The position numbers are program-made. From NCBI GenBank assembly GCA_043825875.1, contig JBDRRF010000051.1:1-64000 (forward strand): a stretch of 64,000 nucleotides of DNA, written 5' to 3'. Origin of the DNA: Pseudomonadota bacterium (GTDB lineage Bacteria; Desulfobacterota; Desulfobacteria; Desulfobacterales; RPRI01). This document shows positions 39,001 through 48,000 of this stretch, in pieces (the first letter of the stretch is position 1; every line of letters starts with the position of its first letter).

Positions 39001-42000
39001 ATTTTACCGCACTGGAGGTACCCAATATCTCTCCATCATCCGGCCGGAAGATATCTGCGCTTAAGCTGATTTCATTTACCAAAAGATCCATATCCTGGTA
39101 TGAAGACTGATTTGAAGAAAGCTCAAGAGACAGGCTGACCAAAAGGCCCATCTGAGATTCACGATCTTCAGAGTATTTAAAAACCTTAAACCCACCCTGT
39201 TTTAGTTTATCGGCAAGAATGGATGCTGATTTCCTGGCTGAAGAAAGATACTTTTTATCCATATCTTTATCGATTATAATACTTATACGGGGATTTTTTT
39301 GCCAGCTTATTACTTTTTTAAATCTGTCAAGATCTTCAAGCATTGCTGATGTTTCAACATCCGCTTCGATTTCAACTTCAAATGTACCAATGTCGGTTTT
39401 TTTTTCTTTGATAACCTTTATGTTTTTAAGATATCCGGCTGTCCTGCTTAATATCTGGTCTTTTATCACAACAAAATTTTCAACCGTTGTACTTGATTCA
39501 ACAGCAGAACCGATTGCCTGTTCCAGAGCAGCTCTTTTAGCTTCATCAATAGCTTTCTCTCTTGCTATAACCTCTCTTCCAGGTTCAAAAAAGCTTATCC
39601 CTTTAGCTGTGACAATGATACCGGCTATAAGATTGGTTGGAAATAAAAACGAAACAGATATAATAAGGAATAACATATTTATTTTAATATTTTTCATATT
39701 CGAATTCCGCAAGTTTCATTAAAACCACACTAAGTATTTTGAAAACGGATATTTAAGCCTGACAAAGTAAAAGGCAAAAGGGAGAATTAAAGATTTCAAA
39801 TTCACGGCTATTCGTCTAACCCTCCCCCCGCAGTAAGATATGACGAATAAGGATCATTTAAGGTTTTTGTACCTGCTTTTTATATTTAAGATTTGCACCA
39901 TGTTATAATATCGGCACAGCATATAAAATACTTAAGCATATAAAATATCCTGAAATCTCTATAAATTCATACTATTTGTGCTGGTCTTATGTCAAGTGAT
40001 AAAATGGGGAGCAGGGAAAAACATAAGGAGCAAATACGAAAGAAGTCATTTGCAAAAGATCCAATTGAAGCTTTTGCAAATTTGATAAACGGCCAGGCTG
40101 TTAATATATATTAATCTATTTATAGATTTGATTATTTTATGATCAATTGCTACAAAATATTACCAAAAAGATCAGTCAATAGCGCTTTCAACCTTAAATC
40201 CTTCTTTTTCTAAAGCACTTTTGATAATATCTGTTTTGCAGGAAGAAAGACGAAAATAGTATGTTCTTTTTGGACCTTTCCGGTTTGCAGTCATCCCTAT
40301 ACTTATAATATCACCATCCATTTCATGTATGATTTGAAGGGCTTTCTTGAAGGAGTCCTGGGCATCGCCAACAACTACATCAATACGTGAGCTTGCCGTT
40401 AACAGACCCATCATATTAATGAAAGCTCCTAAAATATCTGTAACCGTAATTATGCCGACGATCTTGTTTCTTACAACAACCGGCATTCCTCCTATTTTAT
40501 TCTTGTATATTTTCTGAGCAGCTATTTCTATATCTTCATCCGGACTAACGGTTATTGGATCTTTAATAATCAAATCGGCAAGAGACAATTCTCCTATCAT
40601 AGATTGCACAAGGCCCTGTTTTAAAACAGAAAGTGTAATAAAACCTTTTAGAGCTTTATTTTTGCCAACAACAGGCAGGTGACGTATGGAATTAATCTTC
40701 ATCAACTCGATTGCTTCTGTAATTGATGATTTTTCACTAATAGTAATAGGATCAGGTATCATCAGAGCTTTGATTTTCATATCATTCACCTTTTTTAATT
40801 TTGGGTTATATAGCGTTTGTCAAAATAATGTTCAAAATTTATGACATTTGCTATAGTTGATGAACCTAATTTTTCGGCTCATAGCTGCAAAGGGGTTCTT
40901 GCGCCATAAAATCCCCTGTGGCCTCATAGGCTCTGGCCCGGCAGCCTCCGCAAACTCTTTTGTATTCACAGATACCGCATTTGCCTTTAAGTTTATCAAA
41001 ATTTCTCAAAGAAAGAAAGGTTTCAGATGATTTCCATATTTTTTCAAAGGAATCTTTTGTTACATCCCCACAATCAATATTTAGAAATCCACATGGCTGA
41101 ACAACGCCTACATGTGAAATAAAACAAAAGCCGGTTCCACCAAGGCATCCTCTTGAAACCGCATCAAGGCCGAATGATTCAAAATTTACCGATTCACCGT
41201 CTTTTTTCGCCCTTTGCCGTAGTATACGATAATAATGGGGAGCACAGGTTGCTTTTAGCTGTAAAGACGTTTTATTCCGCTGATCATAAAACCAGTTTAA
41301 TGTTTCTTCATAATCATCGGCTGAAATTTCATGTTTGATAATATATTTTCCTCTGCCTGTGGGAACAAGCAGAAATATATGATGTGCCACTGCACCAAGA
41401 TTTACAGCCAGCTCCTGGATTTGCTGTATATATTGTATGTTCAGTTTGGTAATTGTAGTATTAATCTGAAATTCAAGCCCTGCCTCTTTGGCAAAATCGA
41501 TACCGCGCATAGCTGCTTCAAAAGCACCTTCTACACCTCTGAAACTGTCATGGCTTTCTTTGGTCGGCCCATCCAAACTTATGCTTATTCTTTTTATTCC
41601 GGAATCTACCATTTTTTTTGCTATGGGTCCGGTTATAAGTGTACCATTTGGAGCCATCACCATTCTTAAACCCTTTTTTGTTCCATAGCTTGCTATATCG
41701 AAAATATCAGGCCGTAATAAAGGCTCTCCTCCTGTAAGAATAACTATAGGCTCTCCTGTGGCTGCTATTTGATCAACAAGTTTAAAGGATGCTCCGGTGT
41801 CAAGCTCACCTGTATAGGAAGTGTTTAATGCGGACGCACGGCAATGAATGCAGGCAAGATTGCAATTTCTTGTAATTTCCCAGGCAACAAGACGCAAGGA
41901 AGATGCATTGCTTTTTCCTTCTGAAGGTTTGTGGTGATTCGGTTTGTCATTCATAATCTCAGTTCATTCGCTGCTTCAATAGCAAAATAGGTGAGTATCA

Positions 42001-45000: not shown

Positions 45001-48000
45001 ATTCAACAAGATCTTCAGACTTTACGTGCGTTAACACATCGGCATAATTTTTTGCTTTTGGAGTACTTCCGCCAAAACCTATACTATTGTTGGCAACACG
45101 TTTTTGAATAATTTTTTCAAGTTCGGCAAAAGCCCCACTTACTATAAAAAGAATGTTCTTGGTATTTACGATCCGCCTGTTTTTTTTGCCTGTTTTGCGA
45201 AATCGTTCGATTTCCTGCATCATTGAGATCGGATCATGAGGTACCTTAAGATCCACTTCCGTCTCTTCAAGCGGTTTCAATAAAGCTCGCTGAACCCCGG
45301 TTCGTGAAACATCAGCTCCGATTAAACTTTGGCTTGATGCGATTTTATCTATTTCATCTATATATATAATTCCGTACTGGGCAAGTTCAATATTATCATC
45401 GGCTTCCCTTACAAGATCTCTTACAAGGTCTTCCACATCTCCGCCCACATACCCGGTTTCACTAAATTTTGTGGCATCCCCCTTTACAAAAGGAACTCCT
45501 ATCTTTTTTGCTATCAATTTAATCATGTAGGTCTTGCCGACACCGGTGGGACCAAGCATCAGAATATTATTTTTAATGCCGCAAAACATGTCATCTGCAA
45601 GATCTGGATATAAACTGAATGTTTTAATCCTGTTGTAATGCGTGCATATTTTTGTTGCAAGGATAGCCTTTGCATCATCCTGCTTAATTATATACTGATC
45701 GAGATAAGAGATAAGACCTTCCGGTTTTAAATCAAAATTTAATTTCTTGTCATTATCATTGGAGCATCCTATATGTTCGGTCTCATCCTCTTGGGTCATA
45801 GGCGCAGCAGAGGCAATCCGGACTGTTCCGCCAAATTTTTTTGAAAGGAAACTACCGATCTCTTTTTCGATTTCTTCAAATTTTGGAATTTTTTCATTTT
45901 TTGTTTTCATATTATCGATTATAATCACATGTAAATAAAAAGCAAGCATCAGAGATTATGGACTCATATAAGTCAATTATATATATTATAATTCTAAAGG
46001 CCAATAAAGTTAATTTAAATGTTTATTCCAACAACTAAAGAAGAAGTAAAAAAACTGGGTTGGGACTCACTGGACGTTATCCTTGTTACGGGAGACAGCT
46101 ATATAGACAGCCCCTTTGTAGGAGTATCTATAATAGGGAAAATGCTGATTAAAAAAGGATTCCGGGTTGGAATCATTGCTCAGCCAGATATCAATTCTGT
46201 AAATGATATAATCCGTTTAGGCGAACCGGAGCTTTTCTGGGGTATATCAGGCGGATGCATAGATTCCATGGTTGCAAATTATACCGCCTCAAAAAAGAGA
46301 AGAAAAAAAGATGATTATACTGCCGGAGGGCAAAATACACGTCGCCCGGATCGAGCTGTTATTGTCTATTCAAACCTTATAAGAAAATATTTCAAAAATA
46401 CAAAACCTCTTGTTCTGGGAGGAATAGAAGCAAGCCTAAGACGGATACCACACTATGATTTCTGGTCAAACCGTTTACGAAAATCCATAATATTTGATGC
46501 TAAAGCGGATTATATTATCTACGGTATGGGCGAAAAAACTACGATTGAGATGGCAGAAAAGCTAAGAGATGGCAAAGATACTAAAGATATCCCCGGTATC
46601 TGCTATATATCGGGCAAGCCCCGCGAAGATTATATCAAGCTTTGTTCATTTAATGATTTACTTGCCGACAAAAATGCATTTATTGATATGTTTAATGTTT
46701 TTTACATAAACAATGATCCATTAAAAGCAAAGGGCATGTATCTAAAGCATGACACAAGGTATCTTGTTCATAATCCACCAGCGCCAAGTATTTTATCAGA
46801 AGAACTTGACGCTATTTATGATATGGATTTTGAAAGAGACTTACATCCGTATTATAAAAAGAACGGGCCGGTAAGAGCACTTGATACAATCAAATTTTCA
46901 ATTCCAACCCACCGGGGCTGTTACGGTGAGTGTAATTTCTGCGCAATTACAGTTCATGAAGGAACAACGGTAAGCTGGAGAAGTGAAAAATCAATTATCA
47001 GGGAAGCAAAACAAATTGCAGCACTTCCTGATTTTAAGGGATATATTCTTGATGTCGGAGGCCCTACGGCAAATATGTACGGATTTGAATGCGAAAAAAA
47101 GCTTTCCAGAGGAAGATGTTTAAACAAACGATGCATGTATCCAAACATTTGTTCCACGTTAAAGCCGGATCATGAAAAGCAAATAAAATTGCTTCAAAGT
47201 TTAAGAAAATTAAATGGGATCAAAAAAATATTTATTTCATCAGGTATAAGATATGATCTTTTGCTTGATGACAAAATAAATGGCGAAAAGTATTTAAAAG
47301 AAATAATACTGCATCACATATCAGGCCAGCTTAAAATTGCGCCGGAACATACTGAAGAAATGATTCTTAATCTGATGGGAAAGCAAGAAACAAAATCACT
47401 TCTTGAATTTGTTGACAAATTTTATAAGCATACAAAAGTTGCTGGAAAAGAGCAGTACCTTACTTACTATTTCATGGTATCCCATCCCGGCTGCAACAAA
47501 GACCATATAAAAAAGATGAAGTCGTTTATATCAAACAAGTTAAAGATCAATACCGAACAGGTCCAGATTTTCACTCCGACTCCGTCAACTTATTCAACTT
47601 TAATGTATTATAATGAAGTTAATCCTTTTAATAAAAAAAATATTTTTATAGAAAAAGATATATACGAAAAAGAAAAGCTAAAAAGAATTATTACGTCAAA
47701 AAGTACAGTGAAGCGTAAAAAGAACAAAGGCATAGAGGATTAATAATTCTTGTATTGACCGTTAGTTGTTTTATTCATATAAAATCCGTTGCAAATATTA
47801 ATAATTATATTATTCCCCTTGTAAATATTGTGAGAAAGTTACTCACCTGTAGGGGAAGGCATCGGTTAGATTTTTTGTACCATAAGGGTCCAAGGATTCG
47901 AGGATTCCAGGGTTCGAGAATAATAATGAAAAGGTTTTCCCTTGACCCCTTGAAGCCTCGAATCCTTGAATCCTCAAGGGATCGGCTATAACTGATGGTA

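What a model noticed while it worked through the whole genome (the two positions that open the first line are those of the whole stretch)
40866..45949. Second ClpX-type ATPase without zinc-binding domain, with a 180-aa C-terminal extension, fixed at the head of the ahbC-h [...]
Besides canonical clpX, a 605-aa paralog keeps Walker A/B, the GYVG pore loop and the IGF ClpP-docking loop. It replaces the zinc-binding domain by a new conserved N-terminal helix and adds a conserved ~180-aa tail. It lies directly upstream of the alternative heme synthesis genes throughout the order, which suggests a dedicated unfoldase for that pathway.
Evidence so far: The tail finds single-copy orthologs in 27 of 31 order genomes. 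ahbC follows directly in 19 of 20 loci and hemB in the other; the alignment shows the conserved motifs and the missing ZBD against the genome's own ClpX. The neighbours table gives AAA_2 near ALAD in >=487 order genomes, 923 overall.
(Added by a program. Inside this text positions count along the whole contig: contig position 1 is position 1 of the stretch shown here. "Call 12" and the like, gene names such as g00115 and contig names such as C1 are that model's own, and its searches are not shown. The text may have been shortened before it was handed on; [...] marks where a part breaks off. The agent that wrote the report below was given it as the finding of a first reader that could run no searches.)

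Follow-up and report, generated by a model that had tools for sequence, protein, structure and literature searches.

The report
Double-lid ClpX relative heading heme operon
This gene encodes an unstudied sister of the protein-unfolding motor ClpX that lacks the zinc domain and carries a second copy of its own lid domain; it leads the late heme-synthesis operon in one large group of sulfate-reducer relatives, but it also occurs in many bacteria without that pathway, so it is probably not a dedicated heme-pathway machine.

Summary
A ZBD-less ClpX-type ATPase with intact motor motifs and IGF loop heads ahbC-hemB-ahbD, beside a separate tig-clpP-clpX. Corrections: the protein is probably 592 aa (start 45910). 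The 'tail' is mostly a degenerate second copy of its own small (lid) domain, lacking the sensor-II arginine (HHalign 97.8%; top fold matches are HslU, ClpX and Lon lids). It also lacks the RKH loop. It forms its own clade, found in 99 of 201 phylum genomes and in Verrucomicrobiota, Poribacteria and other phyla. There, 0 of 44 loci have ahbC, ahbD or hemB nearby and 0 of 44 genomes have AhbC over cut-off. Within the phylum 25 genomes have it without ahbC and 41 have ahbC without it. All heme-linked copies fall in one clade: one old recruitment, kept as stably as the ahbC-hemB junction. New here: in this order a conserved promoter abuts its start codon (29 of 38 loci), predicting a leaderless first gene that carries the operon's promoter. 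Best reading: a second ClpP-docking unfoldase with its own substrates, co-transcribed with heme genes; dedicated heme control is possible but untested. The scan noted this family before on other DNA.

The parts
45918..45945 (-). Predicted sigma70-type promoter of the operon: -35 box 45945-45940, 16-nt spacer, -10 box 45923-45918, then 7 nt to the start codon (predicted leaderless mRNA)
   Evidence: same geometry in 29 of 38 order loci (26 with a TTG -35), SD-like in 1 of 38; own-genome baseline 72 and 8 of 2409 ORFs; ahbC starts 0 of 33. No RNA data.
44132..45910 (-).
   Evidence: below both ClpX cut-offs (313.5 of 359; 286 of 370.75)
45815..45889 (-). N-terminal helix motif (aa 8-32) in place of the zinc-binding domain, followed by a variable linker
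   Evidence: helix 11-26, pLDDT about 70; mean column identity 0.63 against 0.31 in the linker
44945..45739 (-). Large AAA+ domain (aa 58-322): Walker A aa 120-127, GYVG aa 153-156, Walker B aa 182-186, arginine finger R313
   Evidence: catalytic positions invariant in 59 of 59
45161..45268 (-). Longer, helical insert (aa 215-250) where ClpX has its RKH loop; no RKH
   Evidence: RKH in 0 of 59 members, 25 of 25 canonical ClpX; 34-37 against 25 residues; helix 227-240
45074..45082 (-). IGF ClpP-docking tripeptide (aa 277-279)
   Evidence: final Phe in 57 of 59 members
44651..44944 (-). First small (lid) domain (aa 323-420) with sensor-II R376
   Evidence: (PF10431)
44426..44650 (-). Middle helical module (aa 421-495), present in the long form of this phylum, absent from the short form of other phyla; at best a weak partial third repeat
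   Evidence: (HHalign 20.7%)
44171..44425 (-). Second, degenerate lid domain (aa 496-580) without the sensor-II motif
   Evidence: 97.8%, E 8.8e-13; motif in 0 of 51
42945..44123 (-). ahbC, radical SAM 12,18-didecarboxysiroheme deacetylase; 8 nt after the ATPase stop
41951..42925 (-). hemB, porphobilinogen synthase
40866..41954 (-). ahbD, radical SAM heme b synthase; overlaps the hemB stop
40172..40789 (-). CBS-pair protein, last co-oriented gene; also follows the heme genes in several other order loci

Best explanation
It is a second, ATP-driven hexameric unfoldase of an old sister lineage of ClpX. It docks through its IGF loops on the same ClpP that canonical ClpX uses and serves a different substrate set. 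Shown: intact motor residues, IGF loop, loss of both ClpX recognition elements (zinc domain and RKH loop), a new N-terminal helix, a longer helical insert on the substrate face, a duplicated lid that cannot sense nucleotide, coexistence with canonical ClpX and ClpP. Inferred: hexamer, ClpP binding, and that the new elements (N-helix, insert, second lid as a rim platform) choose substrates or adaptors. In one ancestor within this phylum the gene became the first gene of the late heme operon; in this order it carries the operon's promoter right at its start codon, which ties ahbC-hemB-ahbD to it whether or not their products are substrates. Its core job is therefore general proteolysis or remodelling, with co-expression with heme genes as a lineage trait.
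For: Catalytic positions invariant in 59 of 59, IGF-type Phe in 57 of 59, RKH in 0 of 59. Own clade apart from canonical ClpX (99; 100/99). Canonical ClpX over cut-off in 39 of 44 and ClpP in 41 of 44 genomes outside the phylum; one ClpP in this genome. Lid duplication. Neighbours differ by lineage: heme genes, a DnaJ/CbpA-type protein (8 loci), SurA/PpiD-type (2), RecR, HU, UbiE-type and others. Presence is uncoupled from AhbC. One heme-linked clade, 3 changes of state on 76 rows. Promoter abutting the start codon.
Against: The junction to ahbC is kept at least as often as the junction between two true pathway genes (40 against 32 of 64), hemB takes the place next to it in 6 of 17 genomes without AhbC, and no upstream neighbour cluster recurs more than twice in 35 loci. 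The promoter geometry is limited to the order (0 of 23 other phylum loci), so it cannot explain the whole persistence. The pore-2 loop is two residues shorter than in ClpX, which could alter ClpP contacts. No activity, binding or expression was measured.
Confidence: 0.55

Rival explanations
1. In the heme-linked clade the protein was co-opted as a pathway regulator: it degrades or remodels AhbC, AhbD or HemB (for example after Fe-S damage, iron shortage or heme excess), as mitochondrial ClpX does for ALA synthase and as Azotobacter ClpX2 is reported to do for NifB. The receiver-domain gene that lies between it and the heme gene in some lineages could be an adaptor.
For: 51 of the 58 rows of one clade are heme-linked; junction stability; a receiver-domain gene intervenes in 8 loci; two related Poribacteria loci have a chlorite dismutase/HemQ-like gene next, far under the HemQ cut-off. 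Precedents: PMC7077987, PMC12852852 and bioRxiv 10.64898/2026.02.23.707539 (passages read); the NifB/ClpX2 paper seen only as a title in a reference list.
Against: Neither ahbC nor hemB is the constant neighbour; complete single-contig genomes G027 and G193 run AhbC without the gene; no shared Fur-, Rex-, FNR-, CIRCE-, sigma32- or sigma54-like box above shuffles upstream; a single origin gives no independent replicate.
Confidence: 0.25
2. It works mainly without ClpP, as a remodeller or disaggregase-like chaperone, perhaps with a J-domain partner; the IGF loop is retained but secondary.
For: A DnaJ/CbpA-type gene follows in 8 loci and a SurA/PpiD-type gene in 2; yeast Mcx1 lacks the zinc domain and acts without ClpP (passages); 11 conserved columns match HslU rather than ClpX.
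Against: The IGF-type loop is kept in 57 of 59 members across phyla and ClpP is found in 41 of 44 genomes tested; the gene was not seen next to dnaK or clpB among the neighbours annotated.
Confidence: 0.13
3. The second lid is a nucleic-acid or membrane-complex binding platform that localises the motor (the Lon small domain is recalled to bind DNA; recalled, not tested), so its targets are DNA- or ribosome-bound proteins.
For: Fold matches include isolated Lon alpha domains (Z 6.1-6.6); HU, RecR and RimO-type genes are neighbours in some Verrucomicrobiota loci.
Against: A shared fold shows no function; those neighbours are lineage-bound housekeeping genes.
Confidence: 0.07

Closest known systems
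Bacterial ClpX (TIGR00382, PRK05342; PDB 6wrf, 8e7v, 9ndj)
   Same: AAA+ core (Foldseek E 1e-24, about 39% identity), Walker A/B, GYVG, IGF, arginine finger, sensor II
   Different: No zinc-binding domain, no RKH loop, shorter pore-2 loop, second lid and middle module, under both family cut-offs, separate clade, not in tig-clpP-clpX
HslU (TIGR00390)
   Same: No zinc domain; pore-2 loop of the same length; 11 conserved columns shared with the genome's HslU and not ClpX
   Different: Has an IGF loop, lacks the I domain, 26 conserved columns side with ClpX; 179.5 bits against a cut-off of 362
Myxococcus xanthus ClpX3 (PMC11423568; part 1 of 5 and passages read)
   Same: An isolated extra ClpX without N-domain and RKH, beside a canonical ClpX; its loss impairs growth at high temperature
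   Different: The matching third ClpX-like protein of a Myxococcus genome (L225; my assignment by rank and anatomy, not by locus tag) has no second lid and falls outside this clade (long branch)
Mitochondrial ClpX / yeast Mcx1 acting on ALA synthase (PMC7077987; bioRxiv 10.64898/2026.02.23.707539; passages)
   Same: ClpX-type motor tied to heme synthesis; Mcx1 lacks the zinc domain and uses an insertion on the substrate face to recruit its substrate
   Different: Different enzyme and pathway step, different insertion site, no lid duplication reported in the passages read; Mcx1 has no ClpP
Azotobacter vinelandii ClpX2 of the nif cluster (position from a passage of PMC9866876; function from a title in the references of PMC5715403; paper itself not held)
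   Same: A second ClpX inside a cofactor-synthesis operon, reported to set the level of NifB (a radical SAM enzyme)
   Different: Sequence not compared here; membership of this clade not tested

Membership tests
Canonical ClpX | Score over the TIGR00382 / PRK05342 cut-off | tested here: not met
   286 of 370.75 and 313.5 of 359 bits; own ClpX 640 and 660
Canonical ClpX | N-terminal C4 zinc-binding domain | tested here: not met
   absent in 76 of 76 translated members; present in 24 of 24 canonical controls
Canonical ClpX | RKH loop | tested here: not met
   0 of 59 against 25 of 25
Canonical ClpX | Single AAA+ module with Walker A/B, GYVG, arginine finger, sensor II | tested here: met
   invariant in 59 of 59; fold match
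Canonical ClpX | IGF/LGF ClpP-docking loop | tested here: met
   56 of 59 match [ILMV]GF, one more has FGF
Canonical ClpX | Binds and activates ClpP; hexamer; ATP-driven unfolding | not testable with these tools
   needs biochemistry
HslU | Score over TIGR00390 cut-off and I domain | tested here: not met
   179.5 of 362.45 bits in three pieces; has the IGF loop that HslU lacks
Myxococcus ClpX3 type | Same clade and same short architecture | tested here: not met
   L225 lies outside the 19-row clade (100/99) and has no second lid; long branch, identity with MXAN_2743 assumed
Azotobacter nif ClpX2 type | Orthology with the nif-cluster ClpX2 | not tested
   sequence not held; paper not held
AAA+ small (lid) domain, for aa 496-580 | Profile and fold match to AAA+ lids | tested here: met
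   HHalign to own lid 97.8%, E 8.8e-13; VIA Z 7.6, rmsd 2.3 over 76 residues to HslU, 7.4 to ClpX, with AAA+ lids filling most of the top rows; Z alone is middling and Foldseek gave no E under 0.001
Dedicated component of the Ahb pathway | Co-occurrence with AhbC | tested here: not met
   both 74, gene only 25, AhbC only 41, neither 61 of 201; AhbC over cut-off in 0 of 44 carriers outside the phylum

The most novel reading that the evidence does not exclude
In the heme-linked clade of this phylum the double-lid ClpX relative is a protein-level controller of late heme synthesis: made from a leaderless message at the head of the operon, it remodels or feeds to ClpP the Fe-S enzymes AhbC/AhbD (or HemB), using its N-helix, helical insert or second lid, in some lineages with a receiver-domain adaptor. 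That would be a bacterial counterpart, reached independently, of the mitochondrial ClpX-ALA synthase link.
Probability: 0.25. Interest if true: 0.75.

Novelty: new variant of a known kind. Interest (0 to 1): 0.5.

Why it matters
ClpX is among the best-studied molecular machines, and extra ClpX copies are called rare (PMC11423568). Here is a widespread, uncurated sister lineage that has dropped both known substrate-recognition parts and gained a tandem lid, an architecture I did not find in print with the searches named. It gives a testable second entry port to ClpP in sulfate reducers, Verrucomicrobiota and Poribacteria. If the heme link is functional it would be the first protein-level control of the siroheme-dependent heme route that I know of; if not, it is a clear case of a pathway operon borrowing the promoter of a housekeeping gene.

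Tried and rejected
Complex prediction of the ATPase (aa 8-585) with AhbC: no answer, score 0.00 in two runs, controls not folded; no evidence either way. Tail against Pfam: no family shared by more than 2 of 41 members; against PDB sequences: nothing under E 0.05, ClpX only at E 1.5; Foldseek of the tail model: no E under 0.001; ESM Atlas: best 0.89, unnamed clusters, lead only. The middle module has no clear fold match and only a weak likeness to the second lid. The N-helix as a further lid piece: not supported (1.3%). Upstream regulator boxes (recalled consensus patterns): none above shuffles; Rfam 39500-48500: none. The generic promoter scan did not list the conserved promoter because its -35 box matches the consensus in only 3 of 6. 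No orthologue of the intervening receiver-domain gene stood out in this genome (best 25% identity). A first tree run timed out and was redone on the AAA core. Paper searches with no paper holding the terms: clpX+ahbC+ahbD (13); ClpX paralog+lacks+zinc (62); second ClpX/ClpX-like/Verrucomicrobia, any two (65); ahbC+operon+Desulfobacterales (83); ClpX+siroheme+heme biosynthesis+sulfate-reducing (86); ahbC+hemB+Desulfovibrio+ATPase (107); ClpX+small domain+duplication+tandem gave one dynein paper (101). The library lacks most subscription papers, so this does not prove absence from print. Rows dropped: of 120 stretches from the motif scan (which stopped at its limit) 40 had no flanks and were not analysed; 4 more missed the strict motif and were left out of counts (three are family members by eye, one is another ClpX-like protein); hemB positions were listed for 150 of 194 matches, so one search covers 64 of the 74 genomes.
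Full report
Observation. The window holds a minus-strand run of five genes: a ClpX-like ATPase (44132..45910), ahbC, hemB, ahbD and a CBS-pair protein, with ygiQ diverging upstream. AhbC and AhbD pass their NCBIfam cut-offs; the ATPase fails both ClpX cut-offs and the HslU cut-off. Canonical tig-clpP-clpX is on contig C86 and hslU on C83; one true ClpP was found; ahbA and ahbB lie on two other contigs. Gaps are 8 nt to ahbC, 19 nt to hemB and a 4-nt overlap to ahbD. Database names of the nearest homologs point to Desulfobacterales.

Start and promoter. Homologs begin at the window's Met14, giving 592 aa. 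In 29 of 38 order loci a -10 box ends 6-9 nt before that ATG, 26 of them with a TTG-type -35 box at 16-18 nt, and only 1 of 38 has a Shine-Dalgarno-like stretch. Controls: ahbC starts in the same loci 0 of 33; own-genome ORFs 72 of 2409, and 8 with the -35 (starts called by a first-ATG rule); other loci of the phylum 0 of 23, with SD-like in 13. This is prediction from sequence; kin are not independent.

Anatomy. Walker A and B, the pore-1 tyrosine, arginine finger and sensor II are invariant in 59 of 59 members. The IGF-type loop is kept in 57 of 59; the two that lost it (L082, L102) also lack the tail, while a third tail-less member keeps it. The zinc domain is absent in 76 of 76. The RKH loop is absent in all 59 (25 of 25 canonical ClpX have it) and is replaced by a segment about 11 residues longer that is modelled as a helix. 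The pore-2 loop has HslU length in 53 of 59; 26 conserved columns side with ClpX and 11 with HslU. An AlphaFold2 model (pLDDT 85.5) matches ClpX structures. The tail resolves into a middle helical module (aa 421-495) and a second lid (aa 496-580): profile comparison with the protein's own lid gives 97.8%, E 8.8e-13; the tail model (pLDDT 93.8) matches the small domains of HslU (Z 7.6, rmsd 2.3, 76 residues), ClpX (7.4) and Lon (6.6), and AAA+ lids fill most top rows. The copy lacks the sensor-II motif in 51 of 51, so it cannot contact nucleotide in the usual way. I saw the duplication by eye and tested it before consulting the scan's earlier notes, which report the same.

Range. The tail matches 111 of 121 order genomes and 99 of 201 phylum genomes; a tail profile finds 603 clusters at 50% identity. 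A family-specific motif scan stopped at 120 stretches; of 76 analysed, 44 come from records named Verrucomicrobiota, Lentisphaerota, Kiritimatiellota, Poribacteria, Latescibacterota, Bdellovibrionota, Desantisbacteria or unclassified. Of these 44, 38 have the second lid, 3 are cut by contig ends and 3 lack it; most are a short form of 500-560 aa without the middle module. Their genomes hold canonical ClpX over cut-off in 39 of 44 and ClpP in 41 of 44. On AAA-core trees the family is one clade apart from canonical ClpX (59 rows, support 99; 19 rows, 100/99); HslU is a long branch, so the root is unsure.

The heme link, for. ahbC follows in 33 and hemB in 3 of 39 order loci. Among 30 loci from other families of the phylum a heme gene follows in 17. 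In the 201-genome sample the gene lies directly upstream of ahbC in 44 of 74 genomes that have both; in the 64 with a listed hemB position the gene-to-ahbC junction is present in 40 and the ahbC-to-hemB junction in 32. Where AhbC was not found, hemB is adjacent in 6 of 17. Upstream neighbours turn over: no cluster is the immediate upstream gene more than twice in 35 loci. So this is a conserved operon and not mere residual synteny.

The heme link, against dedication. 25 of 99 carriers show no AhbC and 41 of 115 AhbC genomes show no tail; a full-length profile over 24 tail-negative genomes found only canonical-length ClpX hits, plus one fragment in G065, and these include single-contig, 100% complete G027 and G193 with AhbC over cut-off. 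Outside the phylum 0 of 44 loci have ahbC, ahbD or hemB within the flank held (24 of 32 for deltaproteobacteria-type records), and 0 of 44 genomes have AhbC over cut-off, 4 having weaker matches, one just under (these genomes may be incomplete). Neighbours there are assorted housekeeping genes. Within the phylum 8 loci have a DnaJ/CbpA-type gene next and 2 a SurA/PpiD-type gene. All 51 heme-linked rows fall in one 58-row clade (support 98, FastTree), with 3 changes of state on the tree: one gain, long kept. No shared regulator box was found upstream.

Mechanism. Most likely (0.55) this is a second ClpP-docking unfoldase that has swapped ClpX's two recognition devices for new ones and handles its own substrates; the motor anatomy is shown, ClpP use and the role of the new parts are inferred from established ClpX biology. 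Its place at the head of the heme operon reflects one old recruitment, reinforced in this order by the promoter at its start codon. The main rival (0.25) is that the heme-linked clade uses it to control AhbC, AhbD or HemB, by analogy with mitochondrial ClpX and ALA synthase (passages of PMC7077987, PMC12852852 and bioRxiv 10.64898/2026.02.23.707539) and with Azotobacter ClpX2 and NifB (title only; operon position). The two readings are not exclusive. ClpP-free chaperone (0.13) and nucleic-acid-directed motor (0.07) follow.

Known or new. It works like ClpX but is not a member of the ClpX equivalog family. The nearest studied ZBD-less, RKH-less bacterial paralog, M. xanthus ClpX3 (PMC11423568), appears to be another lineage. 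Databases name members 'AAA family ATPase' or 'ClpX'. My paper searches found no description; supplements were not read. The scan's earlier notes describe the same family beside a J-protein, a pseudo-receiver and heme gene, envelope genes, and in DPANN archaea; I confirmed the first two contexts and did not test the others. Verdict: a real, uncurated new variant of a known kind of machine; the dedicated-heme claim is only partly supported. Interest 0.5.

Noticed in passing
L092:6181-6930, L104:6235-6972: In two related Poribacteria loci a chlorite dismutase/HemQ-like gene lies directly downstream of the ATPase; it scores far under the HemQ cut-offs (about 45 of 235 bits). Two other Poribacteria loci have different neighbours.
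   Followed up: partly
L044, L054, L058, L059, L063, L066, L114, L140: A stand-alone receiver-domain gene sits between the ATPase and ahbC or hemB; several of these ATPases (L044, L066, L114, L140) also lack the N-terminal helix. A possible adaptor, like CpdR (recalled).
   Followed up: partly
L082:4169-5722, L102:4214-5497, L115:4527-5942: Three Verrucomicrobiota members lack the second lid; two of them also lack the IGF motif, hinting that lid and ClpP docking are lost together.
   Followed up: partly
L078 / L226 (G359:C182:41684-42691): A fourth, very divergent ClpX-like protein (about 380 aa, no zinc domain, LGF loop kept) in a Myxococcus genome, beyond the three described in PMC11423568.
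   Followed up: partly
window 40172..40789: A CBS-pair protein follows the heme genes here and in several other order loci (L014, L068, L071, L073, L076, L155); it may be a conserved fifth operon member that senses adenylates.
   Followed up: no
window 34406..39712: Three co-oriented exported proteins (fibronectin-III repeats; TPR plus CsgG-like lipoprotein; FlgT-like N-domain) form a cluster of unknown role.
   Followed up: no
window 50057..54998: A methyltransferase and a 1029-aa partner that look like a type III restriction-modification pair (by eye from the translations; not scanned).
   Followed up: no
L198:2717-3034 with L198:1477-1956: A DsrC/TusE-like gene (by eye) lies two genes upstream of one ahbA/B-type gene; the two ahbA/B-type genes are on separate contigs.
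   Followed up: no
L030 (G093:C220), G065:C1:1506996-1507376: Partial extra or broken copies of the ATPase gene: a tail-only piece downstream in L030 and an N-terminal fragment in G065.
   Followed up: no
L077: A record named Bacteroidetes carries a short-form member that resembles the Verrucomicrobiota sequences by eye; possibly a misbinned contig.
   Followed up: no
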